Positions 29,414-64,000 of a stretch of DNA of 64,000 bases are shown here, piece by piece. The stretch comes from Eledone cirrhosa. Taxonomy: Eukaryota. The notes below the pieces were generated by a model, which worked only from the letters and a program-made list of their open reading frames with translations, made no database searches and had not been told where the DNA came from. The translations under genes and the position numbers were made by a program. The stretch spans positions 170,376,001 to 170,440,000 of the forward strand of contig OZ024741.1 in NCBI GenBank assembly GCA_964016885.1. Reading direction: 5' to 3'. How positions within the stretch are numbered: the first letter of the stretch is position 1; each line of letters opens with the position of its first letter.

Positions 29414-29444
<31 letters not shown>

Positions 29445-29962: not shown

Positions 29963-30024
<62 letters not shown>

Positions 30025-37510: not shown

Positions 37511-37578
<68 letters not shown>

Positions 37579-37697
37579 TATACATATATATATATATATA
37601 ATGTATATATATATATACATATATATATATATTTTATTATATATATTATATATATATATATATATTATATATATATATATATATTATATATATATAT

Positions 37698-37729
<32 letters not shown>

Positions 37730-37744
37730 ATTATATATATATAT

Positions 37745-37778
<34 letters not shown>

Positions 37779-37808
37779 ATATATAATATATATATAATAT
37801 ATATATAT

Positions 37809-37839
<31 letters not shown>

Positions 37840-38008
37840 ATATATATACATATATATAATATATATATAATATATATATATATATAATATATATATTACA
37901 TATATATATATTACACACATATATATATATATATATAATATATATTTATATATATATATATATACATATATATTACATATATATAATATATATATATATA
38001 TATATTAC

Positions 38009-38070
<62 letters not shown>
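37511..38070. repeat. Long imperfect (TA)n tract
   Basis: Direct reading. Confidence 0.98.
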
Positions 38071-38077
<7 letters not shown>

Positions 38078-38121
38078 CGTAAAATAAGAAATTATAAAAT
38101 TGACTTACTTACTAAAATATC

Positions 38122-38203
38122 ACTTCCAACTAATTAGTTTCTGGAATGGAATAAATATATTTTCCGAAGAAGATACTGAGAAGCATTCCGTCGTCAGGGA
38201 AGT
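38122..38203 (-). ncRNA. Type I hammerhead ribozyme (family B)
   Basis: acttcc-CTGACGA-c ggaatg...cattcc a-GAAAC-taatta-GTT/-ggaagt. Confidence 0.85.
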
Positions 38204-38644
38204 CTATTCTCATCTAAGTATCCAGGCAAAGCGTGGACACTGGAAACTTATTAAAAAAATAATTCAGTGGATAGAAAATAGCAAAGCGTGGACTGAATTC
38301 CTAGCCATTGAGAAAATCACTGCCTCTGCGTCGGTGGCAAATTCAAAAAGAATCAATCACGTGACATCGAGGTCAATCAATGGAAAGTGGTTTGCTAATA
38401 AGACAGCGGCCTGCCTGCTACCATAGCAGCAGTCATGGCCAATATTGCTCGACAAATAATTTGGAGATAATTATAAAGAATTAATATCTAGTAACATATA
38501 TATACATACAGATGCATATCAATGCTAGCAAATATATAGGTTTTGTCTTAGTAACTTTGTGGTTCAATGCATAGGGTTGCAGAACAATAATATGAGAGAC
38601 GTAACATAAGAAAATTATAAAATTGACTTACTTACTAAAATATC

Positions 38645-38726
38645 ACTTCCAACTAATTAGTTTCTGGAATGGAATAAATATATTTTCCGAAGAAGATACA
38701 GAGAAGCATTCCGTCGTCAGGGAAGT
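38645..38726 (-). ncRNA. Type I hammerhead ribozyme (family B)
   Basis: Same motif 523 bp away. Confidence 0.85.
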
Positions 38727-39408
38727 CTATTCTCATCTAAGTATCCAGGCAAAGCGTGGACACTGGAAACTTATTTAAAAAATAATTCAGTGGATAGAAA
38801 ATAGCAAAGCGTGGACTGAATTCCTAGCCATTGAGAAAATCACTGCCTCTGCGTCGGTGGCAAATTCAAAAAGAATCAATCACGTGACATCGAGGTCAAT
38901 CAGTTGAAAGTGGTTTGCTAATAAGACAGCGGCCTGCCTGCTACCATAGCAGCAGTCATGGCCAATATTGCTCGACAAATAATTTGGAGAAAATTATAAA
39001 CTTATTTTACGTCTCTCATATTATTGTTCTGCAACCCCATGCATTGAACCACAAAGTTACTAAGACAAAACCTATGTATTTGCTAGCATTGATAAGCATC
39101 TGTATGTATACATATGTTACTAGATATTAATTCTTTAAAATTATCTCCAAATTATTTGTCGAGCAATATTGGCCATGACTGCTGCTATGGTAGCAGGCAG
39201 GCCGCTGTCTTATTAGCAAACCACTTTCCACTTGATTGACCTCGATGTCACGTGATTGATTCTTTTTGAATTTGCCACCGACGCAGAGGCAGTGATTTTC
39301 TCAATGGCTAGGAATTCAGTCCACGCTTTGCTATTTTCAATCCACTGAATTATTTTTTTAATAAGTTTCCAGTGTCCACGCTTTGCCTGGATACTTAGAT
39401 GAGAATAG

Positions 39409-39490
39409 ACTTCCCTGACGACGGAATGCTTCTCAGTATCTTCTTCGGAAAATATATTTATTCCATTCCAGAAACTAATTAGTTGGAAGT
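39409..39490 (+). ncRNA. Type I hammerhead ribozyme (family B)
   Basis: 6-bp stem I ACTTCC/GGAAGT, core CTGACGA at 39415, GAAAC at 39471, palindromic stem III AACTAATTAGTT, predicted cleavage after 39484. Confidence 0.85.
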
Positions 39491-39660
39491 GATATTTTAG
39501 TAAGTAAGTCAATTTTATAATTTTCTTATTTTACGTCTCTCATATTATTGTTCTGCAACCCCATGCATTGAACCACAAAGCTACTAAGACAAAACCTATA
39601 TATTTGCTAGCATTGATATGCATCTGTATGTATATATATGTTACTAGATATTAATTCTTT

Positions 39661-40103
<443 letters not shown>

Positions 40104-41726: not shown

Positions 41727-41891
41727 GTTATTCCGGGTTGAATCGGAGGTAACCACAGTAAGTAAGGTACTCAATACATAGCAGAGTATAACAGTTTTAA
41801 TATAGATGAGATTCTACAGGAATCGTCAGGATTCCTGATGATTTCAAATGAATGAAACAGTTCTAGTCCTGTAGAATCTCATCTATATTAA

Positions 41892-41895
<4 letters not shown>
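41723..41895. mobile_element. Short TA-flanked element with 29-bp inverted repeat enclosing an HHR-like core
   Basis: Inverted repeat 41793-41821 / 41867-41895; CTGATGA at 41835 and GAAAC at 41854; GGTAAC..GTACTCAATAC module shared with the 41446 and 6908 elements. Confidence 0.55.
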
Positions 41896-41926: not shown

Positions 41927-42497
41927 CCCGGAAAAAATGAAACGAAATTTCATTTCTCACTCTTAGTACGGCTGTTACTTAAATATAAGTATGTATACGT
42001 ACATACATATATGTATACAGACGTACAGTAGTATGTATATATATATATACATACATGCACATATATATATATATATGTACGTATGGATTCACCGAACATT
42101 TATTATAATGTTCGCTGTGTTTGTAAACAAACATCCCGAATTAAGCCGTACAGTGTCTAGCAACCATCGTTGCTCATTTGTTCAACGTTAATATGCATAA
42201 GGAAAGTATATACTTTCAGACGTTCAACCATCTGGCAGGAAGGTATACGTTGCTAACGATAGCTAATAAGCTTGAAACTAGTACATCGTACCTTTGTCAG
42301 TGTTGAACAAATGAGCAACGATGGTTGCTAGACACTGTACGGCTTAATTCGGGATGTTTGTTTACAAACACACCGAGCATTCTAATAAATGTTCGGTGAA
42401 TCCATACGTACATATATATATGTATGCATGTATGTATATATATATACATACTACTGTACGTCTGTATACATATATGTATGTACGTATACATACTTAT
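41923..42497. mobile_element. Diverged family A element, head-to-head inverted, with mutated HHR core
   Basis: 42197-42497 aligns with the 29165-29500 region; 41923-42187 is the inverted 3' part; HHR core at 42253 reads CTAACGA (G5 lost). Confidence 0.75.
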
Positions 42498-42953
42498 ATA
42501 TATATATATTATGTATATATATATATATATATATTATGTATATATATATATTATGTATGTATATATATATTTATTATGTATATATATTATATATATATAT
42601 ATATATTATGTATATATATATATTATGTATATATATATATTATATATATATATATATTATGTATACATATATATTATATATATACATATAATATGTATAT
42701 ATATATATTATGTATATATATATATATTATGTATATATATTATGTATATATATATATTATGTATATATATATATTATGTATATATATATTATGTATATAT
42801 ATATATATACATTCTGCTTCTTCCCATGTATAACCTACAGTTAGAAGCTTCAACGGGCTGTTTTTGACTCTGAAAAATACGCGTTTTGAAGCTTTAAGCT
42901 CTAGGTTAATTTTCAATAAGAATACATCTGCTCAAGGTTCCAAAAGCAGAACA

Positions 42954-43385: not shown

Positions 43386-43417
43386 ATGATAATAATAATA
43401 CAAATATATATATATAT

Positions 43418-43730: not shown

Positions 43731-43821
43731 AAAATGCTCGGATCTATTCATTGCAATCTTTGAGCTTATTCTACGGTGGTTATGGTGCATGTCTCGGACA
43801 TGACACCCTTAATTTAATTTT

Positions 43822-43870
<49 letters not shown>

Positions 43871-44604: not shown

Positions 44605-44772
<168 letters not shown>

Positions 44773-44817
44773 TAAACAAATAATGAACAAACAATTCCTT
44801 ATATTAAACAAAAAAAG

Positions 44818-44972
44818 TTCACTATTTAACGATCGTTTCTAGGGTATATATGTGTTATAATTGGTATGCATATTTAACAGATCTATGTACAAAATTATAC
44901 AAAATTATACAAATTATCAAGATTAAATATACATACCTAACTCATATATACGCCGTCTTCAGAAATAATGAA
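44818..44972 (-). ncRNA. Hammerhead ribozyme in PLE pseudo-LTR (inverted copy)
   Basis: Reverse complement of 50293-50447. Confidence 0.75.
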
Positions 44973-45740
44973 GTATATTTATTGATAATAACAACAATTC
45001 AAAATATCAGTTCAAAATTGACCAATGAAAACACAAAGGGTTAAAAGCAGTTTGGTGTGTGTATATACATGTAAAAACCTTACACATATTTTACAATAAT
45101 GTGTGTATAATTTGTATGTGCATACTAAAAAGATGGATGCAAACACAAAATTTCAAGGTTAATATCTCTGTAAGCTTAATGCGCTGATAAGATACGCAAT
45201 GATACTTATGGAGTCAAGCATATAAATATATTTTTTTCATACTCACACATATCAGTATAATCACACATACATGTGCGTATATGCATAAATATACACATAA
45301 CCACGAACATACAAACACACACACTCCCCCACTCACATTTATATATGTGGATATAAAATCATAAGCAAATAGAAATTAAGTCACTCACATAAAAACACTG
45401 GCACACACATTTCAAGATCAAGATACAGAAATTAGGTGGGAGGGGGGGGGAGGGGTCAGTATTAGATTGTCAGACCAGACTGCCTAATATAAATGTATCT
45501 ATAAATTAAGAAAAATAAAAAAATAAAAACAATAAAATATAATAAATATAATATAATGTACATACACATACAGATATACATACACATAGATACATGTACG
45601 CGCACATAGAGATATTTACACATACATACATACACACACACCTATACAGTCATACACACACATACATTTACACGAACATACACATACACATATAAAAAGA
45701 TATAAATACACACACACTCACGCGCAACACATACACACAT

Positions 45741-45793
<53 letters not shown>

Positions 45794-46123
45794 TAGACTC
45801 TTATATATATATATACATATACATATATATATATAAACATATATATCCACACACTCATACCACCATAAATACACATACAAACACCCACATGTATATATAT
45901 ATATATATATATATATCCACATACACACACGTACACATATATATATATATACATATATACACATACATATATATATATACACACACATAAAAAACAGACA
46001 TGCACATATATATATATATATATATATTTCATTACTCTTATATATACACATAGTATATATACATACACAACCTCACTTATACACATATACACATAAGTTA
46101 TATTACAATAATAATAAAGAATA

Positions 46124-46184
<61 letters not shown>

Positions 46185-46325
46185 TACATACATACACATA
46201 CATACATACACATAAATATATACATACATAAATACACACATACGAAAAGACATATATTCACACATAGACACCTATATACACATATATATATATATATATA
46301 TATATCTATATATATATACATACAC

Positions 46326-46356
<31 letters not shown>

Positions 46357-48090
46357 CACACACACACACACACACAGACACACATACACACTCACATATA
46401 TATATATATATATGTGTATGTGAGTGTGCGCAAATACACATATATATACACACACACATACAAACACACACAAACACATACATATGCATACGTGCACACA
46501 CACACACATATATCACATAGATACGAAGATAAACATATAAATAGAGAGACATACAAATATATACAGAACCCATATACACATACATACAAACACGCATATA
46601 CATATACATACATATATACACATATATATATTCCTATATACAAGCATACACATACATACACATATATACATATACATACACATATACATACCACACATTC
46701 ACATACACATACATATATAATACATATATATACATATATATACATACATATGTATGTACGATCATATATACACACTCAATCTTACATTCATATTTACATG
46801 CTCATATATGTATTTTTATATTTAGAAATAAATACCAAAACCTATATAGACACCCACCTACACATATATTCATACATATACGCTTACAAAAACAGATGAT
46901 AATAGTATGGGGGAAAGGGGGGGTTTGGAGAAAGGGATCAAAGTAAATATATGTTTCAAGAAACATATAATATTTTCCGTATCTTAATTCAATGTATGTT
47001 CTTACATATTTTCAGTGCTAGGAAATACGAAATCTATGCATCTCAAAACAAAAAAGTATACCATTAATCATATGTTAACTAAACCAAAGATAGTCAACAT
47101 ATTGATTTCCAAGGTGTAAATTAGTTAGGTTTATAATATTTGAAGCAGAATTATGAAGTCAAACAGTAGTAGATTATTAATTACATTATAACTAAATTAA
47201 AGTTAATAACGTTATGGTATCAATATTAGGAGATGAATTTAGTAATAGGGAAAAGAAACCCAAATAAAAATAAAATAAAGTATTACATCGGTAGTAGCAT
47301 ATAAATTATATGTTAACTAAATTAAAAATTATATATTTATTTCAATAGTATACGTTAATTAGTATATGTTAATTAGGTATACAATACATAAAGCAGATAT
47401 TGTATTTCATCAATAGCATAATATAATTATATGCAAATAAAAATCAAAATTAATACGCATACATATACATATACATACACATACACATACATATACATAT
47501 ACACACATATATATATATATATACATATATATACACATATATACATATATACTCACATAAATATACATACAGATACACATACAACACACACATATACATA
47601 TACATATAGATATACAAATCTTTTTCAAAAAATTGCACAGAATATATTAACTAGGTATATATCAAAAACACATCCCATTCTATGATTACATGACATTCTG
47701 CAATTCGTCTGTACAAGGATACTAATTTTAAGCAAATTAAAATTAAAGTTTTAGGTTGATTAAAACTAAAACCAAATAATAAATATATTTCCAAAATGTA
47801 TATTAATTAGGTCTATAATACTAAAAATTCTTTCTCCGTCATTGGATACATGATATTATTTTGTTATATTTTATCTGTAAAAGAATTATAATAAAAAAAA
47901 TTATAATAAAAGGTTAAAATAAATTAAAATTAATCTATAAATTAAATTACTGAGTATATATTAGTAATATTTAAAGGTTTTTCAAAATTTATGATTACAT
48001 AATATTTTCTCATCTGTAATAAAATATTAATTAAATTAAATTTATAGGTTAACTAACATTTAAATTAAATTAAATTCTAGAATAATGTTA

Positions 48091-50016
48091 TTAATTAGGT
48101 TTATAATATTTAAATGTTTTTTTTAGTTTATGATTACACGATATAATTAATTCCTGTCTTTTATTTAATAAGATATCCCTAGACTTCATTATTTCAAATA
48201 GTTCTTGGGAACATAATCTACATTCCTTTCTATTATTTTGATAAGGGGTGGCTCTTTTGAGCACACTCCAGGTCAAATCATATTTTATATTTTTATTTTT
48301 ATAACTATTGATTTTTTCTGCTAGAGATGTTGTATTAGCCAGTGCGGCATTTTTAAAGCTATGTTTGTGGGTATTATACCTTGTCTTAAAATTGTTAGAG
48401 GTAGCTCCTATATATGAGCAAATAGAATCTTTAGTTTTAACATTACATTTATAGACTATGTTGTTAACAAGACAATTCCCTTTTAATGGGCAGTTTGTTT
48501 TGTTTCTACAGTTACATCCTTTCGTTAATTCTGTATTTGAGGAGATATTATTGTTAATTTGATGTACTGGTGGTATACTTATGGTTTTCTTACATTTATA
48601 TGCATTATATGCACTTATATTTTGTTTTATGTTATTTGTTGTAGAGTATGAGAATTTAACTGTAGACCTATTTAAGATTTGATGGTATTTGTGGTTTGGC
48701 GGGAAGTTTTTCTCAAGGATATAAAAAAATTTTTTAGCAATATTATCCTTAACTTGTAAATTAAAAGGAGCATTATACCAAGTAACTCGTCTATTACGGT
48801 TTCTATGTTGTTTATTATTTTTATTATTTTTATATGTTGTATCATGATTTTTACTAGGAGGATTAATGTTAATGATCTCACCACAACTATTTTTAGTTAT
48901 ATTTGTAGATTTAGGTGTTTTATCTTTTTTATTAGGAGTTTTATTATTAATATTTATTATAGTTGTATGATGAGTAGTTTTTTGAGGGTTACTATACTTT
49001 ATATTAGAAGATTTAGTATTTTGGGGTATACTGTGGGTGGCATTTAGGTGTGTACTTTTCATTTGGTGTTTGTTGGTAATATTATGCTGTATGCTTTCAG
49101 TATTTTTAGTAGAAGGTATATACTCTAATCTATTTTTGTGGCCACTTCTATCTAGAGCTTCATTATAAAAGGTCGCATTTTTATCAAATACATCTTGGTT
49201 AGAAGAAAGGTTAGAAATTCTAAGTGATATATTATATGCAAGGTTTTTAAGGATAGATTTAGGGTGATTAGATTGTGAGTGTATGTAATGTAAGTTTTGG
49301 TTAGGTTTATGGTAAGGTTGGTATATACCCGTAGCTAAATCTAAAGTTATATCTAGGAAATTTACTACTTTACTTGTTTTTTCAAAAGTAATATTAAGAT
49401 TATAATAGTCTTTAAGGAAAGTTCTAATATGCTTTTTGTTTTTTTCGATTTCTGAAAGGCTAAGGTTGTTAGAAAGAAGAAGACAGTCATCACGATATAA
49501 ACCACCTTTGAGGTGGGGAAAAGAGGCATTTATGTTGAAAAGGAGAAAGAGGCCCACAAGATCAGTAATTTGGGCGGAATCGCTTGAACCCATAGTAATA
49601 TCAAAAAGATTACTGTATGTGTTTCTGGTCCAGTATTCATTCTGAAATTCAATAAGTGTTTGTCTAGCATGTGTAATAATGTTAATGTCATCCGAAGTTA
49701 AATTAGATCTATTTTTAGCAAATATTAATGCTTTGTTCAGGAGTATGGGTGATATAGAAGAATAGTAATTATCTATATCAAATTGTAGGAAAGAAGCAGA
49801 AGATTTACACCTAATATTTTTAAACCAATTAATTACCTGGGAGGTGTTTTCCCAGAGTGGTAAAATAACGTATTTTCTTATTTGTGGGATGACTCTATCT
49901 AAAATTTTTTTGCTAATTATTCCAATATCTGATTTGGAGGGACATATAAGTCTAATAGAAGGATTAGAGTTAAAGTTAGATTTGTGATCTTTCAGGTTGA
50001 AGTGTGGTCTTTTCAA
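48091..50016 (-). pseudogene. 5'-truncated PLE RT/GIY-YIG ORF (641 aa)
   Basis: Matches the C-terminal 641 residues of the 820-aa ORF; truncated at the inversion junction. Confidence 0.95.
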
Positions 50017-50023
50017 TGCATTT

Positions 50024-50500
50024 TCTTGAAATGTGTGTGCCAGTGTTTTTATGTGAGTGACTTAATTTCTATTTGCTTATGATTTTATATCCACATATAT
50101 AAATGTGAGTGGGGGAGTGTGTGTGTTTGTATGTTCGTGGTTATGTGTATATTTATGCATATACGCACATGTAAAATATGTGTAAGGTTTTTACATGTAT
50201 ATACACACACCAAACTGCTTTTAACCCTTTGTGTTTTCATTGGTCAATTTTGAACTGATATTTTGAATTGTTGTTATTATCAATAAATATACTTCATTAT
50301 TTCTGAAGACGGCGTATATATGAGTTAGGTATGTATATTTAATCTTGATAATTTGTATAATTTTGTATAATTTTGTACATAGATCTGTTAAATATGCATA
50401 CCAATTATAACACATATATACCCTAGAAACGATCGTTAAATAGTGAACTTTTTTTGTTTAATATAAGGAATTGTTTGTTCATTATTTGTTTAATATTTTA
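50024..50500 (+). repeat. 5' pseudo-LTR of the PLE (partial tandem copy, 176-bp internal deletion)
   Basis: Matches 55902-56554 except for a deletion at ~50172 bounded by TGTA microhomology. Confidence 0.9.
50293..50447 (+). ncRNA. Type I hammerhead ribozyme with 116-nt stem II in PLE pseudo-LTR
   Basis: TTCATTATTT-CTGAAGA-[116 nt, mostly paired]-GAAAC-gatc-GTT/-AAATAGTGAA; 10-bp stem I with one GU pair, palindromic stem III AACGATCGTT. Confidence 0.75.
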
Positions 50501-50790
50501 TCTTGACTCTGTATACCGTTTATCTTTCACCGAAAGTGGATTTTCATTACATCTCTTCTTTCCATGATATCCGGAATACATTGAGTTCTTCATACGGATT
50601 GGACACTACCGTAAACTCTTGGTAGATTTATCTACATAATTTTGCTCCTATTTTCACGGAAATATTCGTATTTTTGTACTGTATGTGTGTATTAATTTTA
50701 TATTTATGTATAAACATATATATATGTATGATTTTGTAAACCCATATACATTTAGTTGAGCTCTTTCAATTGTCCATCATCCATATCACA

Positions 50791-53232
50791 ATGGAAAAAC
50801 AATATTTAGGAACCTCCTTAAAAAACATACCAATACCTTCTAAGGACGACTTCTTACTCCTTATGATTCAGAAAACTAATAATTTTATCAGAAGGGTTAG
50901 ATGGAGAGCCTACCACTTCGATAGAAAATCTAAACAAGCAGATCGGAAATATATGTATGATTTCAACACTTACAAGAATCCACCACACAACTTTTTACTT
51001 GAAGACTTCGAGAAAGACCTTTTTAATTTAATTAAACACCTCAAATTTAAAAAGTATAAATCCGTCTTTCAAAAGGACCTTGATTCTACCCTATTGGACC
51101 TAAAAAAGTCTAAAAAAATCCATGTCCACTCGGACAAAACTGGTTACTTGTATCATATGGATATTGAACATTATAATGAGTTCATATATAAAGAACTCAG
51201 AAAAAATTATAAAAAATCTAATAATGTGTCACTCACCAACATCAACAACAAAACACACAACATAGTAAAAAAACTAAATATTGAAGATAGAACTGAACCT
51301 TTGGCATTGAAAAGACCACACTTCAACCTGAAAGATCACAAATCTAACTTTAACTCTAATCCTTCTATTAGACTTATATGTCCCTCCAAATCAGATATTG
51401 GAATAATTAGCAAAAAAATTTTAGATAGAGTCATCCCACAAATAAGAAAATACGTTATTTTACCACTCTGGGAAAACACCTCCCAGGTAATTAATTGGTT
51501 TAAAAATATTAGGTGTAAATCTTCTGCTTCTTTCCTACAATTTGATATAGATAATTACTATTCTTCTATATCACCCATACTCCTGAACAAAGCATTAATA
51601 TTTGCTAAAAATAGATCTAATTTAACTTCGGATGACATTAACATTATTACACATGCTAGACAAACACTTATTGAATTTCAGAATGAATACTGGACCAGAA
51701 ACACATACAGTAATCTTTTTGATATTACTATGGGTTCAAGCGATTCCGCCCAAATTACTGATCTTGTGGGCCTCTTTCTCCTTTTCAACATAAATGCCTC
51801 TTTTCCCCACCTCAAAGGTGGTTTATATCGTGATGACTGTCTTCTTCTTTCTAACAACCTTAGCCTTTCAGAAATCGAAAAAAACAAAAAGCATATTAGA
51901 ACTTTCCTTAAAGACTATTATAATCTTAATATTACTTTTGAAAAAACAAGTAAAGTAGTAAATTTCCTAGATATAACTTTAGATTTAGCTACGGGTATAT
52001 ACCAACCTTACCATAAACCTAACCAAAACTTACATTACATACACTCACAATCTAATCACCCTAAATCTATCCTTAAAAACCTTGCATATAATATATCACT
52101 TAGAATTTCTAACCTTTCTTCTAACCAAGATGTATTTGATAAAAATGCGACCTTTTATAATGAAGCTCTAGATAGAAGTGGCCACAAAAATAGATTAGAG
52201 TATATACCTTCTACTAAAAATACTGAAAGCATACAGCATAATATTACCAACAAACACCAAATGAAAAGTACACACCTAAATGCCACCCACAGTATACCCC
52301 AAAATACTAAATCTTCTAATATAAAGTATAGTAACCCTCAAAAAACTACTCATCATACAACTATAATAAATATTAATAATAAAACTCCTAATAAAAAAGA
52401 TAAAACACCTAAATCTACAAATATAACTAAAAATAGTTGTGGTGAGATCATTAACATTAATCCTCCTAGTAAAAATCATGATACAACATATAAAAATAAT
52501 AAAAATAATAAACAACATAGAAACCGTAATAGACGAGTTACTTGGTATAATGCTCCTTTTAATTTACAAGTTAAGGATAATATTGCTAAAAAATTTTTTT
52601 ATATCCTTGAGAAAAACTTCCCGCCAAACCACAAATACCATCAAATCTTAAATAGGTCTACAGTTAAATTCTCATACTCTACAACAAATAACATAAAACA
52701 AAATATAAGTGCATATAATGCATATAAATGTAAGAAAACCATAAGTATACCACCAGTACATCAAATTAACAATAATATCTCCTCAAATACAGAATTAACG
52801 AAAGGATGTAACTGTAGAAACAAAACAAACTGCCCATTAAAAGGGAATTGTCTTGTTAACAACATAGTCTATAAATGTAATGTTAAAACTAAAGATTCTA
52901 TTTGCTCATATATAGGAGCTACCTCTAACAATTTTAAGACAAGGTATAATACCCACAAACATAGCTTTAAAAATGCCGCACTGGCTAATACAACATCTCT
53001 AGCAGAAAAAATCAATAGTTATAAAAATAAAAATATAAAATATGATTTGACCTGGAGTGTGCTCAAAAGAGCCACCCCTTATCAAAATAATAGAAAGGAA
53101 TGTAGATTATGTTCCCAAGAACTATTTGAAATAATGAAGTCTAGGGATATCTTATTAAATAAAAGACAGGAATTAATTATATCGTGTAATCATAAACTAA
53201 AAAAAACATTTAAATATTATAAACCTAATTAA
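50791..53232 (+). CDS. PLE reverse transcriptase-GIY-YIG endonuclease protein (813 aa from first ATG)
   Basis: SDKT, RLICP, QFDIDNYYSSI, MGSSDSA, LYRDD, FLDITL, HSQSNHP, CNCRNKTNCPLKGNC, IVYKC...YIGATSNNFKTRYNTH, CRLC, SCNH. Confidence 0.97.
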   Translation: MEKQYLGTSLKNIPIPSKDDFLLLMIQKTNNFIRRVRWRAYHFDRKSKQADRKYMYDFNTYKNPPHNFLLEDFEKDLFNLIKHLKFKKYKSVFQKDLDSTLLDLKKSKKIHVHSDKTGYLYHMDIEHYNEFIYKELRKNYKKSNNVSLTNINNKTHNIVKKLNIEDRTEPLALKRPHFNLKDHKSNFNSNPSIRLICPSKSDIGIISKKILDRVIPQIRKYVILPLWENTSQVINWFKNIRCKSSASFLQFDIDNYYSSISPILLNKALIFAKNRSNLTSDDINIITHARQTLIEFQNEYWTRNTYSNLFDITMGSSDSAQITDLVGLFLLFNINASFPHLKGGLYRDDCLLLSNNLSLSEIEKNKKHIRTFLKDYYNLNITFEKTSKVVNFLDITLDLATGIYQPYHKPNQNLHYIHSQSNHPKSILKNLAYNISLRISNLSSNQDVFDKNATFYNEALDRSGHKNRLEYIPSTKNTESIQHNITNKHQMKSTHLNATHSIPQNTKSSNIKYSNPQKTTHHTTIININNKTPNKKDKTPKSTNITKNSCGEIININPPSKNHDTTYKNNKNNKQHRNRNRRVTWYNAPFNLQVKDNIAKKFFYILEKNFPPNHKYHQILNRSTVKFSYSTTNNIKQNISAYNAYKCKKTISIPPVHQINNNISSNTELTKGCNCRNKTNCPLKGNCLVNNIVYKCNVKTKDSICSYIGATSNNFKTRYNTHKHSFKNAALANTTSLAEKINSYKNKNIKYDLTWSVLKRATPYQNNRKECRLCSQELFEIMKSRDILLNKRQELIISCNHKLKKTFKYYKPN

Positions 53233-54966
53233 TAACATTATTCTAGAATTTAATTTAATTTAAATGTTAGTTAACCTATAAATTTAATTTAATTAATATT
53301 TTATTACAGATGAGAAAATATTATGTAATCATAAATTTTGAAAAACCTTTAAATATTACTAATATATACTCAGTAATTTAATTTATAGATTAATTTTAAT
53401 TTATTTTAACCTTTTATTATAATTTTTTTTATTATAATTCTTTTACAGATAAAATATAACAAAATAATATCATGTATCCAATGACGGAGAAAGAATTTTT
53501 AGTATTATAGACCTAATTAATATACATTTTGGAAATATATTTATTATTTGGTTTTAGTTTTAATCAACCTAAAACTTTAATTTTAATTTGCTTAAAATTA
53601 GTATCCTTGTACAGACGAATTGCAGAATGTCATGTAATCATAGAATGGGATGTGTTTTTGATATATACCTAGTTAATATATTCTGTGCAATTTTTTGAAA
53701 AAGATTTGTATATCTATATGTATATGTATATGTGTGTGTTGTATGTGTATCTGTATGTATATTTATGTGAGTATATATGTATATATGTGTATATATATGT
53801 ATATATATATATATATGTGTGTATATGTATATGTATGTGTATGTGTATGTATATGTATATGTATGCGTATTAATTTTGATTTTTATTTGCATATAATTAT
53901 ATTATGCTATTGATGAAATACAATATCTGCTTTATGTATTGTATACCTAATTAACATATACTAATTAACGTATACTATTGAAATAAATATATAATTTTTA
54001 ATTTAGTTAACATATAATTTATATGCTACTACCGATGTAATACTTTATTTTATTTTTATTTGGGTTTCTTTTCCCTATTACTAAATTCATCTCCTAATAT
54101 TGATACCATAACGTTATTAACTTTAATTTAGTTATAATGTAATTAATAATCTACTACTGTTTGACTTCATAATTCTGCTTCAAATATTATAAACCTAACT
54201 AATTTACACCTTGGAAATCAATATGTTGACTATCTTTGGTTTAGTTAACATATGATTAATGGTATACTTTTTTGTTTTGAGATGCATAGATTTCGTATTT
54301 CCTAGCACTGAAAATATGTAAGAACATACATTGAATTAAGATACGGAAAATATTATATGTTTCTTGAAACATATATTTACTTTGATCCCTTTCTCCAAAC
54401 CCCCCCTTTCCCCCATACTATTATCATCTGTTTTTGTAAGCGTATATGTATGAATATATGTGTAGGTGGGTGTCTATATAGGTTTTGGTATTTATTTCTA
54501 AATATAAAAATACATATATGAGCATGTAAATATGAATGTAAGATTGAGTGTGTATATATGATCGTACATACATATGTATGTATATATATGTATATATATG
54601 TATTATATATGTATGTGTATGTGAATGTGTGGTATGTATATGTGTATGTATATGTATATATGTGTATGTATGTGTATGCTTGTATATAGGAATATATATA
54701 TGTGTATATATGTATGTATATGTATATGCGTGTTTGTATGTATGTGTATATGGGTTCTGTATATATTTGTATGTCTCTCTATTTATATGTTTATCTTCGT
54801 ATCTATGTGATATATGTGTGTGTGTGTGCACGTATGCATATGTATGTGTTTGTGTGTGTTTGTATGTGTGTGTGTATATATATGTGTATTTGCGCACACT
54901 CACATACACATATATATATATATATATGTGAGTGTGTATGTGTGTCTGTGTGTGTGTGTGTGTGTG

Positions 54967-54997
<31 letters not shown>

Positions 54998-55164
54998 GTG
55001 TATGTATATATATATAGATATATATATATATATATATATATGTGTATATAGGTGTCTATGTGTGAATATATGTCTTTTCGTATGTGTGTATTTATGTATG
55101 TATATATTTATGTGTATGTATGTATGTGTATGTATGTATGTATATATATATATATATGTATATA

Positions 55165-55197
<33 letters not shown>

Positions 55198-55527
55198 TAT
55201 TCTTTATTATTATTGTAATATAACTTATGTGTATATGTGTATAAGTGAGGTTGTGTATGTATATATACTATGTGTATATATAAGAGTAATGAAATATATA
55301 TATATATATATATATGTGCATGTCTGTTTTTTATGTGTGTGTATATATATATATGTATGTGTATATATGTATATATATATATATGTGTACGTGTGTGTAT
55401 GTGGATATATATATATATATATATATATACATGTGGGTGTTTGTATGTGTATTTATGGTGGTATGAGTGTGTGGATATATATGTTTATATATATATATGT
55501 ATATGTATATATATATATAAGAGTCTA

Positions 55528-55578
<51 letters not shown>

Positions 55579-56346
55579 ATGTGTGTATGTGTTGCGCGTG
55601 AGTGTGTGTGTATTTATATCTTTTTATATGTGTATGTGTATGTTCGTGTAAATGTATGTGTGTGTATGACTGTATAGGTATGTGTGTATGTATGTATGTG
55701 TAAATATCTCTATGTGCGCGTACATGTATCTATGTGTATGTATATCTGTATGTGTATGTACATTATATTATATTTATTATATTTTATTGTTTTTATTTTT
55801 TTATTTTTCTTAATTTATAGATACATTTATATTAGGCAGTCTGGTCTGACAATCTAATACTGACCCCTCCCCCCCCCTCCCACCTAATTTCTGTATCTTG
55901 ATCTTGAAATGTGTGTGCCAGTGTTTTTATGTGAGTGACTTAATTTCTATTTGCTTATGATTTTATATCCACATATATAAATGTGAGTGGGGGAGTGTGT
56001 GTGTTTGTATGTTCGTGGTTATGTGTATATTTATGCATATACGCACATGTATGTGTGATTATACTGATATGTGTGAGTATGAAAAAAATATATTTATATG
56101 CTTGACTCCATAAGTATCATTGCGTATCTTATCAGCGCATTAAGCTTACAGAGATATTAACCTTGAAATTTTGTGTTTGCATCCATCTTTTTAGTATGCA
56201 CATACAAATTATACACACATTATTGTAAAATATGTGTAAGGTTTTTACATGTATATACACACACCAAACTGCTTTTAACCCTTTGTGTTTTCATTGGTCA
56301 ATTTTGAACTGATATTTTGAATTGTTGTTATTATCAATAAATATAC

Positions 56347-56501
56347 TTCATTATTTCTGAAGACGGCGTATATATGAGTTAGGTATGTATATTTAATCTT
56401 GATAATTTGTATAATTTTGTATAATTTTGTACATAGATCTGTTAAATATGCATACCAATTATAACACATATATACCCTAGAAACGATCGTTAAATAGTGA
56501 A
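56347..56501 (+). ncRNA. PLE hammerhead ribozyme
   Basis: Identical to 50293-50447. Confidence 0.75.
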
Positions 56502-56844
56502 CTTTTTTTGTTTAATATAAGGAATTGTTTGTTCATTATTTGTTTAATATTTTATCTTGACTCTGTATACCGTTTATCTTTCACCGAAAGTGGATTTTCA
56601 TTACATCTCTTCTTTCCATGATATCCGGAATACATTGAGTTCTTCATACGGATTGGACACTACCGTAAACTCTTGGTAGATTTATCTACATAATTTTGCT
56701 CCTATTTTCACGGAAATATTCGTATTTTTGTACTGTATGTGTGTATTAATTTTATATTTATGTATAAACATATATATATGTATGATTTTGTAAACCCATA
56801 TACATTTAGTTGAGCTCTTTCAATTGTCCATCATCCATATCACA

Positions 56845-59286
56845 ATGGAAAAACAATATTTAGGAACCTCCTTAAAAAACATACCAATACCTTCTAAGGA
56901 CGACTTCTTACTCCTTATGATTCAGAAAACTAATAATTTTATCAGAAGGGTTAGATGGAGAGCCTACCACTTCGATAGAAAATCTAAACAAGCAGATCGG
57001 AAATATATGTATGATTTCAACACTTACAAGAATCCACCACACAACTTTTTACTTGAAGACTTCGAGAAAGACCTTTTTAATTTAATTAAACACCTCAAAT
57101 TTAAAAAGTATAAATCCGTCTTTCAAAAGGACCTTGATTCTACCCTATTGGACCTAAAAAAGTCTAAAAAAATCCATGTCCACTCGGACAAAACTGGTTA
57201 CTTGTATCATATGGATATTGAACATTATAATGAGTTCATATATAAAGAACTCAGAAAAAATTATAAAAAATCTAATAATGTGTCACTCACCAACATCAAC
57301 AACAAAACACACAACATAGTAAAAAAACTAAATATTGAAGATAGAACTGAACCTTTGGCATTGAAAAGACCACACTTCAACCTGAAAGATCACAAATCTA
57401 ACTTTAACTCTAATCCTTCTATTAGACTTATATGTCCCTCCAAATCAGATATTGGAATAATTAGCAAAAAAATTTTAGATAGAGTCATCCCACAAATAAG
57501 AAAATACGTTATTTTACCACTCTGGGAAAACACCTCCCAGGTAATTAATTGGTTTAAAAATATTAGGTGTAAATCTTCTGCTTCTTTCCTACAATTTGAT
57601 ATAGATAATTACTATTCTTCTATATCACCCATACTCCTGAACAAAGCATTAATATTTGCTAAAAATAGATCTAATTTAACTTCGGATGACATTAACATTA
57701 TTACACATGCTAGACAAACACTTATTGAATTTCAGAATGAATACTGGACCAGAAACACATACAGTAATCTTTTTGATATTACTATGGGTTCAAGCGATTC
57801 CGCCCAAATTACTGATCTTGTGGGCCTCTTTCTCCTTTTCAACATAAATGCCTCTTTTCCCCACCTCAAAGGTGGTTTATATCGTGATGACTGTCTTCTT
57901 CTTTCTAACAACCTTAGCCTTTCAGAAATCGAAAAAAACAAAAAGCATATTAGAACTTTCCTTAAAGACTATTATAATCTTAATATTACTTTTGAAAAAA
58001 CAAGTAAAGTAGTAAATTTCCTAGATATAACTTTAGATTTAGCTACGGGTATATACCAACCTTACCATAAACCTAACCAAAACTTACATTACATACACTC
58101 ACAATCTAATCACCCTAAATCTATCCTTAAAAACCTTGCATATAATATATCACTTAGAATTTCTAACCTTTCTTCTAACCAAGATGTATTTGATAAAAAT
58201 GCGACCTTTTATAATGAAGCTCTAGATAGAAGTGGCCACAAAAATAGATTAGAGTATATACCTTCTACTAAAAATACTGAAAGCATACAGCATAATATTA
58301 CCAACAAACACCAAATGAAAAGTACACACCTAAATGCCACCCACAGTATACCCCAAAATACTAAATCTTCTAATATAAAGTATAGTAACCCTCAAAAAAC
58401 TACTCATCATACAACTATAATAAATATTAATAATAAAACTCCTAATAAAAAAGATAAAACACCTAAATCTACAAATATAACTAAAAATAGTTGTGGTGAG
58501 ATCATTAACATTAATCCTCCTAGTAAAAATCATGATACAACATATAAAAATAATAAAAATAATAAACAACATAGAAACCGTAATAGACGAGTTACTTGGT
58601 ATAATGCTCCTTTTAATTTACAAGTTAAGGATAATATTGCTAAAAAATTTTTTTATATCCTTGAGAAAAACTTCCCGCCAAACCACAAATACCATCAAAT
58701 CTTAAATAGGTCTACAGTTAAATTCTCATACTCTACAACAAATAACATAAAACAAAATATAAGTGCATATAATGCATATAAATGTAAGAAAACCATAAGT
58801 ATACCACCAGTACATCAAATTAACAATAATATCTCCTCAAATACAGAATTAACGAAAGGATGTAACTGTAGAAACAAAACAAACTGCCCATTAAAAGGGA
58901 ATTGTCTTGTTAACAACATAGTCTATAAATGTAATGTTAAAACTAAAGATTCTATTTGCTCATATATAGGAGCTACCTCTAACAATTTTAAGACAAGGTA
59001 TAATACCCACAAACATAGCTTTAAAAATGCCGCACTGGCTAATACAACATCTCTAGCAGAAAAAATCAATAGTTATAAAAATAAAAATATAAAATATGAT
59101 TTGACCTGGAGTGTGCTCAAAAGAGCCACCCCTTATCAAAATAATAGAAAGGAATGTAGATTATGTTCCCAAGAACTATTTGAAATAATGAAGTCTAGGG
59201 ATATCTTATTAAATAAAAGACAGGAATTAATTATATCGTGTAATCATAAACTAAAAAAAACATTTAAATATTATAAACCTAATTAA
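56845..59286 (+). CDS. PLE RT-GIY-YIG protein, copy 2
   Basis: Translation identical to copy 1. Confidence 0.97.
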   Translation: MEKQYLGTSLKNIPIPSKDDFLLLMIQKTNNFIRRVRWRAYHFDRKSKQADRKYMYDFNTYKNPPHNFLLEDFEKDLFNLIKHLKFKKYKSVFQKDLDSTLLDLKKSKKIHVHSDKTGYLYHMDIEHYNEFIYKELRKNYKKSNNVSLTNINNKTHNIVKKLNIEDRTEPLALKRPHFNLKDHKSNFNSNPSIRLICPSKSDIGIISKKILDRVIPQIRKYVILPLWENTSQVINWFKNIRCKSSASFLQFDIDNYYSSISPILLNKALIFAKNRSNLTSDDINIITHARQTLIEFQNEYWTRNTYSNLFDITMGSSDSAQITDLVGLFLLFNINASFPHLKGGLYRDDCLLLSNNLSLSEIEKNKKHIRTFLKDYYNLNITFEKTSKVVNFLDITLDLATGIYQPYHKPNQNLHYIHSQSNHPKSILKNLAYNISLRISNLSSNQDVFDKNATFYNEALDRSGHKNRLEYIPSTKNTESIQHNITNKHQMKSTHLNATHSIPQNTKSSNIKYSNPQKTTHHTTIININNKTPNKKDKTPKSTNITKNSCGEIININPPSKNHDTTYKNNKNNKQHRNRNRRVTWYNAPFNLQVKDNIAKKFFYILEKNFPPNHKYHQILNRSTVKFSYSTTNNIKQNISAYNAYKCKKTISIPPVHQINNNISSNTELTKGCNCRNKTNCPLKGNCLVNNIVYKCNVKTKDSICSYIGATSNNFKTRYNTHKHSFKNAALANTTSLAEKINSYKNKNIKYDLTWSVLKRATPYQNNRKECRLCSQELFEIMKSRDILLNKRQELIISCNHKLKKTFKYYKPN

Positions 59287-61020
59287 TAACATTATTCTAG
59301 AATTTAATTTAATTTAAATGTTAGTTAACCTATAAATTTAATTTAATTAATATTTTATTACAGATGAGAAAATATTATGTAATCATAAATTTTGAAAAAC
59401 CTTTAAATATTACTAATATATACTCAGTAATTTAATTTATAGATTAATTTTAATTTATTTTAACCTTTTATTATAATTTTTTTTATTATAATTCTTTTAC
59501 AGATAAAATATAACAAAATAATATCATGTATCCAATGACGGAGAAAGAATTTTTAGTATTATAGACCTAATTAATATACATTTTGGAAATATATTTATTA
59601 TTTGGTTTTAGTTTTAATCAACCTAAAACTTTAATTTTAATTTGCTTAAAATTAGTATCCTTGTACAGACGAATTGCAGAATGTCATGTAATCATAGAAT
59701 GGGATGTGTTTTTGATATATACCTAGTTAATATATTCTGTGCAATTTTTTGAAAAAGATTTGTATATCTATATGTATATGTATATGTGTGTGTTGTATGT
59801 GTATCTGTATGTATATTTATGTGAGTATATATGTATATATGTGTATATATATGTATATATATATATATATGTGTGTATATGTATATGTATGTGTATGTGT
59901 ATGTATATGTATATGTATGCGTATTAATTTTGATTTTTATTTGCATATAATTATATTATGCTATTGATGAAATACAATATCTGCTTTATGTATTGTATAC
60001 CTAATTAACATATACTAATTAACGTATACTATTGAAATAAATATATAATTTTTAATTTAGTTAACATATAATTTATATGCTACTACCGATGTAATACTTT
60101 ATTTTATTTTTATTTGGGTTTCTTTTCCCTATTACTAAATTCATCTCCTAATATTGATACCATAACGTTATTAACTTTAATTTAGTTATAATGTAATTAA
60201 TAATCTACTACTGTTTGACTTCATAATTCTGCTTCAAATATTATAAACCTAACTAATTTACACCTTGGAAATCAATATGTTGACTATCTTTGGTTTAGTT
60301 AACATATGATTAATGGTATACTTTTTTGTTTTGAGATGCATAGATTTCGTATTTCCTAGCACTGAAAATATGTAAGAACATACATTGAATTAAGATACGG
60401 AAAATATTATATGTTTCTTGAAACATATATTTACTTTGATCCCTTTCTCCAAACCCCCCCTTTCCCCCATACTATTATCATCTGTTTTTGTAAGCGTATA
60501 TGTATGAATATATGTGTAGGTGGGTGTCTATATAGGTTTTGGTATTTATTTCTAAATATAAAAATACATATATGAGCATGTAAATATGAATGTAAGATTG
60601 AGTGTGTATATATGATCGTACATACATATGTATGTATATATATGTATATATATGTATTATATATGTATGTGTATGTGAATGTGTGGTATGTATATGTGTA
60701 TGTATATGTATATATGTGTATGTATGTGTATGCTTGTATATAGGAATATATATATGTGTATATATGTATGTATATGTATATGCGTGTTTGTATGTATGTG
60801 TATATGGGTTCTGTATATATTTGTATGTCTCTCTATTTATATGTTTATCTTCGTATCTATGTGATATATGTGTGTGTGTGTGCACGTATGCATATGTATG
60901 TGTTTGTGTGTGTTTGTATGTGTGTGTGTATATATATGTGTATTTGCGCACACTCACATACACATATATATATATATATATGTGAGTGTGTATGTGTGTC
61001 TGTGTGTGTGTGTGTGTGTG

Positions 61021-61051
<31 letters not shown>

Positions 61052-61218
61052 GTGTATGTATATATATATAGATATATATATATATATATATATATGTGTA
61101 TATAGGTGTCTATGTGTGAATATATGTCTTTTCGTATGTGTGTATTTATGTATGTATATATGTATGTGTATGTATGTATGTGTATGTATGTATGTATATA
61201 TATATATATATGTATATA

Positions 61219-61251
<33 letters not shown>

Positions 61252-61581
61252 TATTCTTTATTATTATTGTAATATAACTTATGTGTATATGTGTATAAGT
61301 GAGGTTGTGTATGTATATATACTATGTGTATATATAAGAGTAATGAAGTATATATATATATATATATATGTGCATGTCTGTTTTTTATGTGTGTGTATAT
61401 ATATATATGTATGTGTATATATGTATATATATATATATGTGTACGTGTGTGTATGTGGATATATATATATATATATATATATACATGTGGGTGTTTGTAT
61501 GTGTATTTATGGTGGTATGAGTGTGTGGATATATATGTTTATATATATATATGTATATGTATATATATATATAAGAGTCTA

Positions 61582-61636
<55 letters not shown>

Positions 61637-62406
61637 ATGTGTGTATGTGTTGCGCGTGAGTGTGTGTGTATTTATATCTTTTTATATGTGTATGTGTATG
61701 TTCGTGTAAATGTATGTGTGTGTATGACTGTATAGGTATGTGTGTATGTATGTATGTGTAAATATCTCTATGTGCGCGTACATGTATCTATGTGTATGTA
61801 TATCTGTATGTGTATGTACATTATATTATATTTATTATATTTTATTGTTTTTATTTTTTTATTTTTCTTAATTTATAGATACATTTATATTAGGCAGTCT
61901 GGTCTGACAATCTAATACTGACCCCTCCCCCCCCCCCTCCCACCTAATTTCTGTATCTTGATCTTGAAATGTGTGTGCCAGTGTTTTTATGTGAGTGACT
62001 TAATTTCTATTTGCTTATGATTTCATATCCACATATATAAATGTGAGTGGGGGAGTGTGTGTGTTTGTATGTTCGTGGTTATGTGTATATTTATGCATAT
62101 ACGCACATGTATGTGTGATTATACTGATATGTGTGAGTATGAAAAAAATATATTTATATGCTTGACTCCATAAGTATCATTGCGTATCTTATCAGCGCAT
62201 TAAGCTTACAGAGATATTAACCTTGAAATTTTGTGTTTGCATCCATCTTTTTAGTATGCACATACAAATTATACACACATTATTGTAAAATATGTGTAAG
62301 GTTTTTACATGTATATACACACACCAAACTGCTTTTAACCCTTTGTGTTTTCATTGGTCAATTTTGAACTGATATTTTGAATTGTTGTTATTATCAATAA
62401 ATATAC

Positions 62407-62561
62407 TTCATTATTTCTGAAGACGGCGTATATATGAGTTAGGTATGTATATTTAATCTTGATAATTTGTATAATTTTGTATAATTTTGTACATAGATCT
62501 GTTAAATATGCATACCAATTATAACACATATATACCCTAGAAACGATCGTTAAATAGTGAA
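62407..62561 (+). ncRNA. PLE hammerhead ribozyme
   Basis: Identical to 50293-50447. Confidence 0.75.
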
Positions 62562-62614
62562 CTTTTTTTGTTTAATATAAGGAATTGTTTGTTCATTATT
62601 TGTTTAATATTTTA

Positions 62615-64000
62615 TCTTGACTCTGTATACCGTTTATCTTTCACCGAAAGTGGATTTTCATTACATCTCTTCTTTCCATGATATCCGGAATACATTGAGT
62701 TCTTCATACGGATTGGACACTACCGTAAACTCTTGGTAGATTTATCTACATAATTTTGCTCCTATTTTCACGGAAATATTCGTATTTTTGTACTGTATGT
62801 GTGTATTAATTTTATATTTATGTATAAACATATATATATGTATGATTTTGTAAACCCATATACATTTAGTTGAGCTCTTTCAATTGTCCATCATCCATAT
62901 CACAATGGAAAAACAATATTTAGGAACCTCCTTAAAAAACATACCAATACCTTCTAAGGACGACTTCTTACTCCTTATGATTCAGAAAACTAATAATTTT
63001 ATCAGAAGGGTTAGATGGAGAGCCTACCACTTCGATAGAAAATCTAAACAAGCAGATCGGAAATATATGTATGATTTCAACACTTACAAGAATCCACCAC
63101 ACAACTTTTTACTTGAAGACTTCGAGAAAGACCTTTTTAATTTAATTAAACACCTCAAATTTAAAAAGTATAAATCCGTCTTTCAAAAGGACCTTGATTC
63201 TACCCTATTGGACCTAAAAAAGTCTAAAAAAATCCATGTCCACTCGGACAAAACTGGTAACTTGTATCATATGGATATTGAACATTATAATGAGTTCATA
63301 TATAAAGAACTCAGAAAAAATTATAAAAAATCTAATAATGTGTCACTCACCAACATCAACAACAAAACACACAACATAGTAAAAAAACTAAATATTGAAG
63401 ATAGAACTGAACCTTTGGCATTGAAAAGACCACACTTCAACCTGAAAGATCACAAATCTAACTTTAACTCTAATCCTTCTATTAGACTTATATGTCCCTC
63501 CAAATCAGATATTGGAATAATTAGCAAAAAAATTTTAGATAGAGTCATCCCACAAATAAGAAAATACGTTATTTTACCACTCTGGGAAAACACCTCCCAG
63601 GTAATTAATTGGTTTAAAAATATTAGGTGTAAATCTTCTGCTTCTTTCCTACAATTTGATATAGATAATTACTATTCTTCTATATCACCCATACTCCTGA
63701 ACAAAGCATTAATATTTGCTAAAAATAGATCTAATTTAACTTCGGATGACATTAACATTATTACACATGCTAGACAAACACTTATTGAATTTCAGAATGA
63801 ATACTGGACCAGAAACACATACAGTAATCTTTTTGATATTACTATGGGTTCAAGCGATTCCGCCCAAATTACTGATCTTGTGGGCCTCTTTCTCCTTTTC
63901 AACATAAATGCCTCTTTTCCCCACCTCAAAGGTGGTTTATATCGTGATGACTGTCTTCTTCTTTCTAACAACCTTAGCCTTTCAGAAATCGAAAAAAACA
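62615..64000 (+). mobile_element. PLE unit 3, running off the window end
   Basis: Same 5' region and ORF start as units 1 and 2. Confidence 0.95.
62905..64000 (+). CDS. PLE RT protein, copy 3 (partial, open to window end)
   Basis: ATG at 62905; one visible change TAC>AAC (Y>N) at 63259; includes LYRDD. Confidence 0.93.
   Translation, partial: MEKQYLGTSLKNIPIPSKDDFLLLMIQKTNNFIRRVRWRAYHFDRKSKQADRKYMYDFNTYKNPPHNFLLEDFEKDLFNLIKHLKFKKYKSVFQKDLDSTLLDLKKSKKIHVHSDKTGNLYHMDIEHYNEFIYKELRKNYKKSNNVSLTNINNKTHNIVKKLNIEDRTEPLALKRPHFNLKDHKSNFNSNPSIRLICPSKSDIGIISKKILDRVIPQIRKYVILPLWENTSQVINWFKNIRCKSSASFLQFDIDNYYSSISPILLNKALIFAKNRSNLTSDDINIITHARQTLIEFQNEYWTRNTYSNLFDITMGSSDSAQITDLVGLFLLFNINASFPHLKGGLYRDDCLLLSNNLSLSEIEKN

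What the first reader, a model, noticed from the sequence alone, without database searches (positions are those of the whole stretch)
38071..39660. Family B: 523-bp HHR concatemer whose ribozyme shares unusual features with the PLE HHR
Three intact HHRs are present. Like the PLE HHR they have C after the core and A before GAAA (C10.1.A11.1), an enlarged stem II (49 nt), a palindromic stem III and a GUU site, with no other visible sequence similarity. The two outer ends stop at different monomer positions, each at a short TA-like microhomology (..TCTCATA, ..CTTTATA). This fits priming by (TA)n on a multimeric or circular RNA. Copies are near-identical, so the insertion is young.
Basis: partly seen in the sequence, partly recalled or inferred. 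Interest (0 to 1): 0.7.

Follow-up and report, generated by a model that had tools for sequence, protein, structure and literature searches.

The report
Penelope-type inverted retrozyme insertion
A non-coding 523-base repeat carrying a self-cleaving RNA motif has been pasted into a TA microsatellite in the head-to-head, one-arm-longer pattern left by Penelope-like retrotransposons, which supports the idea that such 'retrozymes' move by borrowing Penelope enzymes.

Summary
The three hammerheads (HHRs) and their listed features are real. The array is not a simple concatemer. It is two partial tandems joined head-to-head at 39000/39001, with both 3' ends pointing out into (TA)n. The left arm ends 56-60 nt after the cleavage site; the neighbouring PLE (Hydra-clade motifs) ends at 61-64 nt. 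The right arm carries an extra 118-nt tail. Both ends recur in public runs: 14 contigs of X1 at 38590 and 1 of X5 at 38472. This points to two preferred reverse-transcription start sites, as shown for a Poseidon PLE (PMC11167929), not priming at any TA microhomology. Among 70 distinct HHR candidates beside related PLE ORFs, C·A occurs in 2 and no GU-site motif has a long stem II, so those two shared traits are rare; GUU and a palindromic stem III are generic. Units differ by 1.3-3.6%, against 0.15% for the PLE copies. Verdict: a non-LTR retrozyme, probably moved in trans by a Hydra-type PLE. The class and PLE link are published; cleavage, circRNA and helper identity are untested. The scan earlier noted a similar pattern, without an HHR, in another genome.

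The parts
37511..38071 (.). Left (TA)n target array; its last 4 nt are shared with the element end
38068..39000 (-). Left arm, sense on minus: m134-524 (39000-38611), a full unit (38610-38089), m1-21; m1 = 39001; tail-less 3' end 56-60 nt after the cleavage site
38122..38203 (-). HHR 1 (type I; core 38197, cleavage after 38128)
38645..38726 (-). HHR 2 (core 38720, cleavage after 38651)
38988..39021 (.). Head-to-head (5'-5') junction at 39000/39001. The left arm starts at about m134 and the right arm at m1, each near the other arm's 3' end site
39001..39663 (+). Right arm: a full unit (39001-39524) plus m1-139; 3' end 175-179 nt after the cleavage site
39409..39490 (+). HHR 3 (core 39415, cleavage after 39484)
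39546..39663 (+). 118-nt 'tail' (m22-139) present at the 3' end of this arm only
   Evidence: both termini recur
39660..40101 (.). Right (TA)n target array. Its start and the end of the left array share one interruption pattern, a possible but unprovable ~90-bp target-site duplication
44764..64000 (.). Neighbouring autonomous PLE (6.05-kb units, 830-aa stop-free frames at 50740-53232 and 56794-59286; an inverted 5'-truncated arm 50019-44764 ends in (TA)n). Candidate type of helper, not part of family B

Best explanation
Family B is a non-autonomous, non-coding PLE derivative (a non-LTR retrozyme) with a 523-nt unit. A multi-unit RNA (read-through transcript or circle) was bound by the RT-endonuclease of a Hydra-type Penelope-like element. 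The enzyme nicked both strands of a (TA)n tract. Each 3'-OH primed reverse transcription at one of two preferred internal start sites, about 58 and about 177 nt downstream of the HHR cleavage site, with 4 nt of TA pairing at most as a help. The two 5'-truncated cDNAs were joined head-to-head, giving an inverted insertion with a 118-nt tail on one arm only. Shown: anatomy, HHR motif, no ORF, recurrence of the ends and of the 523-nt tandem joint, rarity of C·A plus long stem II. Inferred: trans-mobilisation, Hydra-type helper, double nicking and two start sites (by analogy with PAc in vitro), and HHR activity (probably as a dimer through the stem III palindrome).
For: Inverted partial-tandem layout in (TA)n matches PLE architecture with a tail at one end (PMC8557442 passages). 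PAc nicks and extends both strands and starts at two internal sites that define the tail (PMC11167929 parts 1-2). Recurrence: 14 X1 contigs pass into (TA)n at 38590; 1 X5 contig does so at 38472; the 523-nt tandem joint is in 392 X15 reads from 54 starts. Cleavage-to-(TA)n distance is 57 nt (B left), 175 (B right) and 61 (window PLE). In related PLE loci it is bimodal: 19 of 31 at 32-63 nt and 10 of 31 at 92-140 nt. Locus L080 (8248-8687) has an inverted HHR pair in (TA)n ending at 54 and 116 nt. The window PLE has RWR, DKT and CxCX5C and lacks CX2-5CxxC, the Hydra diagnostics, and that clade inserts in (TA)n. C·A in 2 of 70 and stem II over 25 nt in 0 of 66 GU-site HHRs (positive control and shuffles). 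Longest ATG ORF on the circularised unit is 34 aa. Of 17 core-region positions only the variable N7 is among the 39 displayed variant places, though 12 of them fall in the 82-nt HHR span.
Against: No whole genome is held, so termini were not mapped genome-wide. One search hid 245 loose ends and 158 variant rows, and the tailed end rests on one outside contig that could be this same locus. There is no nucleotide similarity to the local PLE, and B is about tenfold more diverged, so that exact PLE family need not be the helper. The tail (118 nt) is longer than the 30-40 nt described for PLEs. The HHR helices have near-zero pairing probability in the predicted fold of the arm or circle, and the circle is not unusually stable (z -1.7). 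Depth in X1 is several-fold higher over 38450-38685 than over the rest of the unit (a poor measure), which could mean a longer relative shares only the 3' part.
Confidence: 0.7

Rival explanations
1. The array is the 5'-truncated 3' end of an autonomous PLE whose terminal region is itself a 523-nt HHR tandem; no independent non-autonomous family exists.
For: All features (HHR, tail, inverted layout, TA target) are those of PLE 3' ends. X1 depth is highest over the HHR-to-tail part. The preprint 10.64898/2026.07.22.740005 finds retrozyme-pLTR homology in 21 PLE annotations.
Against: Both arms hold complete 523-nt turns and no ORF. The tandem joint recurs in X15, X5 and X1. The share of X1 contigs running on into unlike sequence is reported as 0, and no displayed loose end shows a fixed foreign 5' neighbour (contigs are short and many rows hidden).
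Confidence: 0.17
2. One reading: nicked (TA)n primes at any short TA microhomology on a multimeric or circular RNA, so ends are opportunistic.
For: Both ends sit on 4-nt TA-type matches, and they differ in position.
Against: 10 such runs exist in the unit, and longer ones (6, 7, 9 nt) are not used here. The same ends recur and fall at PLE-like distances from the HHR. PAc starts at sites not homologous to the target.
Confidence: 0.08
3. A satellite-like repeat amplified locally at DNA level (unequal crossover, fold-back repair) from one old pLTR, without repeated retrotransposition.
For: This model is offered for retrozyme arrays in the preprint's discussion. (TA)n tracts are fragile (general knowledge).
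Against: Outward-facing 3' ends at RT-type positions, recurrence of the same junction with (TA)n in 14 contigs, and partial rather than whole units at all four arm ends.
Confidence: 0.05

Closest known systems
Metazoan non-LTR retrozymes (Cervera & de la Pena 2020, PMC7229834; Li, Clavereau & Pollet 2026 preprint 10.64898/2026.07.22.740005)
   Same: Non-coding, AT-rich tandem units each with a type I HHR. The unit length lies inside the 51-972 bp range of the preprint. Co-occurs with PLEs, which both papers propose as the helper or source.
   Different: HHR with C·A at the base of stem II and a 49-nt stem II. Head-to-head insertion with two defined 3' ends in (TA)n: word searches of both main texts found no description of head-to-head layout or tails. 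Expression and circles are not shown here.
Hydra-clade Penelope-like elements (Craig et al. 2021, PMC8557442)
   Same: (TA)n target, type I HHR shortly before the 3' end, mismatch often at the base of stem II, GUU site common, inverted 5'-truncated arm, tail at one end.
   Different: No ORF. None of the 25 Hydra-family HHRs in File S2 has C·A or a loop II over 10 nt (C·A appears there only in Chara PLE-X1). The tail is longer.
Poseidon PAc of Anolis, in vitro (Frangieh et al. 2024, PMC11167929)
   Same: Both-strand priming and two internal RT start sites defining a tail would produce this anatomy.
   Different: Autonomous, a different clade, 30-40 nt tail. The mechanism is transferred by analogy only.

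Membership tests
Non-LTR retrozyme | Tandem units of a few hundred bp, each with a type I HHR; at least two consecutive HHR units | tested here: met
   Left arm has two consecutive HHRs 523 nt apart; tandem joint also in X15, X5 and X1
Non-LTR retrozyme | No protein-coding capacity | tested here: met
   Longest ATG ORF 27 aa sense and 34 aa antisense on the circularised unit
Non-LTR retrozyme | Dispersed multi-copy family | tested here: met
   1983 contigs of X1 and 5302 reads of X15 laid, with many variants; present under three organism labels. Copy number not measurable
Non-LTR retrozyme | HHR self-cleaves | not testable with these tools
   Core intact; predicted masked in the full unit; needs an in vitro assay
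Non-LTR retrozyme | Expressed as monomeric linear and circular RNA | not testable with these tools
Non-LTR retrozyme | Highly self-paired circular fold | tested here: inconclusive
   Circular MFE -111.2 kcal/mol, 63% paired, z -1.7 on 60 shuffles
Non-LTR retrozyme | TSD longer than 4 bp when present | tested here: inconclusive
   Matching interruption pattern of about 90 bp at both junctions, but inside a degenerate TA array
Autonomous Hydra-clade PLE | RT plus C-terminal GIY-YIG ORF | tested here: not met
   No ORF in 38068-39663; the ORF belongs to the neighbouring element
Autonomous Hydra-clade PLE | Insertion into (TA)n, partial tandem plus inverted arm, tail at one end | tested here: met
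Derivative of the window's own PLE family | Nucleotide homology to that PLE's pLTR | tested here: not met
   Local score 24 against shuffle mean 22; 82 of 300 shuffles as high; blastn found only AT-rich scraps
Neighbouring PLE as Hydra clade | RWK-like, DKT and CxCX5C motifs, short C-terminal-EN ORF, HHR, (TA)n target | tested here: met
   Motif scan against section 11 of PMC8557442. No tree with named Hydra sequences was built; absence of CCHH was not tested

The most novel reading that the evidence does not exclude
The insertion records two PLE reverse transcriptases working on one circular (or protein-decorated multimeric) retrozyme RNA, each stopping where the other starts. The right arm's 5' end lies 19-21 nt beyond the left arm's start site, and the left arm's 5' end lies 3-5 nt beyond the right arm's start site, so the two arms sum to three units plus about 20 nt. 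The C·A, long-stem-II hammerhead would be a lineage tag, or a recognition element, pairing this retrozyme with one Hydra-type RT. That would be genomic evidence for a circular intermediate in PLE-driven transposition and would name an enzyme-template pair to test.
Probability: 0.15. Interest if true: 0.72.

Novelty: new variant of a known kind. Interest (0 to 1): 0.4.

Why it matters
How animal retrozymes move is open. PMC7229834 names PLEs as a strong candidate, and the 2026 preprint shows homology and co-occurrence but leaves the mechanism open and also offers local amplification. This locus carries the PLE integration signature (TA target, head-to-head arms, two start sites with a one-sided tail) on an ORF-less HHR tandem. 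An intact-looking Hydra-type RT-EN with an HHR of the same rare build lies 5 kb away. Together they give a concrete RNA and enzyme for an in vitro priming test, and an HHR variant that Rfam misses.

Tried and rejected
Whole-genome mapping: no genome held. Rfam: no HHR hit at the gathering threshold or at E<=10, where only two chance mir-297 hits appeared. Exact HHR pattern in metagenome contigs: 0. Viral contigs held no PLE relative. Pfam gave no significant family for the PLE ORF; the Atlas gave GIY-YIG/HTH_animal look-alike clusters. Short motifs of family B and of the window PLE are absent from the Craig et al. supplement. A paper search for C10.1/A11.1 returned nothing relevant. Lunse et al. 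(PMC5785218) is not held, so its HHR variants could not be checked for C·A or long stem II; I saw only its citation and a summary in PMC6765202. The preprint's supplements are closed, and those of PMC7229834 and PMC4209133 were not opened; they may show similar motifs. The scan's earlier notes had no look-alike by sequence or place. Rejected: GUU and palindrome as evidence of a specific link (generic); HHR cleavage site as an arm boundary (no arm end lies there); three long-stem candidates (non-GU sites; shuffles give such hits). The reciprocal-junction geometry as a general rule is not supported: the window PLE's junction and two other opposite-strand joints in X15 (38735/38861, 15 reads; 38397/38652, 3 reads) lie elsewhere.

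Full report
OBSERVATION. Self-comparison shows a 522-524-nt unit arranged as two arms in opposite orientation. Taking 39001 as m1, the right arm reads on plus m1-524 then m1-139 (39001-39663). The left arm reads on minus m134-524, m1-523, m1-21 (39000-38068). The 5' ends meet at 39000/39001 and both 3' ends run into (TA)n arrays (37511-38071, 39660-40101). A descriptor search finds three type I hammerheads, with cores at 38197(-), 38720(-) and 39415(+). Each has a 6-bp stem I, C·A next to the core, a 49-nt stem II region with a 6-bp basal helix, a palindromic stem III and GUU. Chance is excluded (0 of 300 region shuffles; 0 of 100 window shuffles). Rfam misses them. The unit has no ORF above 34 aa even when circularised.

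THE NEIGHBOURING PLE. From 44764 to the window end lies a PLE with 6.05-kb units, an 830-aa open frame and an inverted truncated arm ending in (TA)n. Its protein has RWR, DKT, YRDD, CxCX5C and a GIY-like motif, and no CX2-5CxxC. These are the Hydra-clade diagnostics of Craig et al. (section 11); I built no tree with named members. It shares no significant sequence with family B (82 of 300 shuffles as good).

HOW UNUSUAL THE SHARED TRAITS ARE. The scan found 93 HHR candidates in 61 loci, 70 of them distinct. Pairs next to the core were G-C 28, U·U 22, others 18 and C·A 2 (both in L050, with a 21-nt stem II). Stem II was at most 25 nt in all 66 GU-site motifs. Three longer candidates lack a GU site and match the false-positive class seen in shuffles (2 in 3 passes). 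The same scan recovers all seven C·A long-stem HHRs of the window. GUU (11 of 70) and exact palindromes (17 of 70) are ordinary. In Craig's File S2, 10 of 25 Hydra families have GUU and none has C·A or a loop over 10 nt. A short palindromic helix III is described as typical of metazoan and PLE HHRs (PMC4209133 parts 1-2). So two of the four shared traits are informative. They suggest common descent from, or co-evolution with, a PLE lineage like the local one (inference), but they do not identify the helper.

THE ENDS. The left end lies 56-60 nt after the cleavage site, the right end 175-179 nt, and the PLE's end 61-64 nt. In the relatives, 31 of 93 candidates have (TA)n within 260 nt: 19 at 32-63 nt, 10 at 92-140 nt, and two others at 6 and 74. 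Distances computed from Craig's tables for 24 families are similarly spread, with 10 at 30-48 nt and most of the rest at 88-153. L080 holds an inverted HHR pair in (TA)n ending at 54 and 116 nt, the same one-sided tail. Laying four runs on one unit gave 14 X1 contigs passing into (TA)n at 38590 (m21) and one X5 contig at 38472 (m139). It also gave the 523-nt tandem joint in 392 X15 reads from 54 starts. Limits: 245 loose ends were hidden, TA flanks cannot be counted as loci, the X5 contig could be this locus, and I do not know which coded organism matches the window. The unit has 10 alternating-TA runs; those of 9, 7 and 6 nt are not used here. Craig et al. describe partial tandems, an inverted truncated arm and a tail at one end (passages). 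Frangieh et al. show that a PLE protein nicks and extends both strands and starts at two internal sites that delimit the tail, without homology to the target and without needing HHR cleavage (parts 1-2). Family B fits this, with a longer tail.

AGE AND TEMPLATE. The five segments differ at 14 columns (1.3-3.6% pairwise among the long ones), against 99.85% identity between PLE units. Only 5 of the 39 displayed variant places vary among the window's units. Three of those are letters private to one unit. All three units share a letter at 38625 that is rare in the contig runs. This suggests a uniform template and later mutation, so the insertion is probably older than the PLE copy beside it (inference). 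It does not separate a circle from a homogeneous multimer.

RIBOZYME FUNCTION. Among displayed variants, 12 places fall in the HHR span, but of 17 core-region positions only N7 varies. Two stem I changes keep G-U pairs; one hits the terminal pair. Changes at 38711 and 38708 would break basal stem II pairs unless compensated in hidden rows. A variant in X4 and X5 swaps the stem II interior while keeping at least four bases of the basal helix. The isolated motif folds with stems I-III. In the full arm or circle these helices have near-zero probability, and stem III is stable only as an intermolecular duplex (-9 kcal/mol), which favours dimeric or protein-assisted cleavage. The circular fold is not exceptional (z -1.7). 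Activity is untested.

AN UNEXPLAINED DETAIL. Each arm's 5' end lies close to the other arm's 3' end site (m1 against m19-21; m134 against m137-139). Under uniform truncation the chance is 0.2-0.7%, but this is post hoc and both points are AT-rich near-repeats. The first 13 nt of the left arm match the sequence just before m1 better than their own position (one base). One coincidence would follow from twin priming on one RNA (an L1 concept recalled, not from a call). Both need a circle, or stalling at protein-bound start sites. The window PLE's junction and two weakly supported opposite-strand joints in X15 do not show it, so I keep it as the novel case at 0.15.

COMPARISON AND NOVELTY. It works like a PLE 3' end and meets the testable criteria of non-LTR retrozymes (PMC7229834 parts 2-4). 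The PLE origin of retrozymes is argued in a 2026 preprint (parts 1-3). Word searches of those two main texts found no head-to-head or tail description, and library searches found none for retrozymes. Subscription papers, Lunse et al. and several supplements were out of reach, so absence from print is not established. An earlier scan note (e1-7810660) reports a tRNA-bearing, HHR-less tandem with the PLE pattern in TA microsatellites of another genome; I did not check it. Verdict: new variant of a known kind, interest 0.4.

Noticed in passing
window 29160-30024 and 41934-42561: A second HHR tandem (465-nt period, U·U type I HHRs at 29225 and 29690, GUA site) with an internal (TA)n, and an older 77-79% identical copy arranged as an inverted pair around 42186.
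   Followed up: partly
window 41793-41895, 41243, 30140(-): Further HHR-like cores next to (TA)n; 41835 lies in a self-complementary stretch and ends 21 nt before a TA run.
   Followed up: no
window 43824-44643 and 43417-43731: A TA-flanked inverted and partial-tandem element with no HHR found by the scans, and a 315-nt palindrome; PLE-like layout.
   Followed up: no
window 44764-64000: Very young Hydra-type PLE (units 99.85% identical, open 830-aa frame) with an unusually long 6.05-kb unit that is mostly low-complexity CA/TA sequence and an HHR with a 116-nt stem II hairpin; the direct arm starts with a 150-nt piece followed by a ~170-nt deletion.
   Followed up: partly
window 7583-27687: A 20-kb array of a 42-bp unit, open for thousands of codons on the minus strand as a Thr-rich, mucin-like repeat.
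   Followed up: no
L078-L092: Contigs filed as bacterial MAGs carry Hydra-type PLE ORFs, HHRs and (TA)n tracts, most likely animal host DNA in the bins.
   Followed up: no
L050 265 and 3024: An independent PLE family with a C·A HHR but a short (21-nt) stem II.
   Followed up: partly
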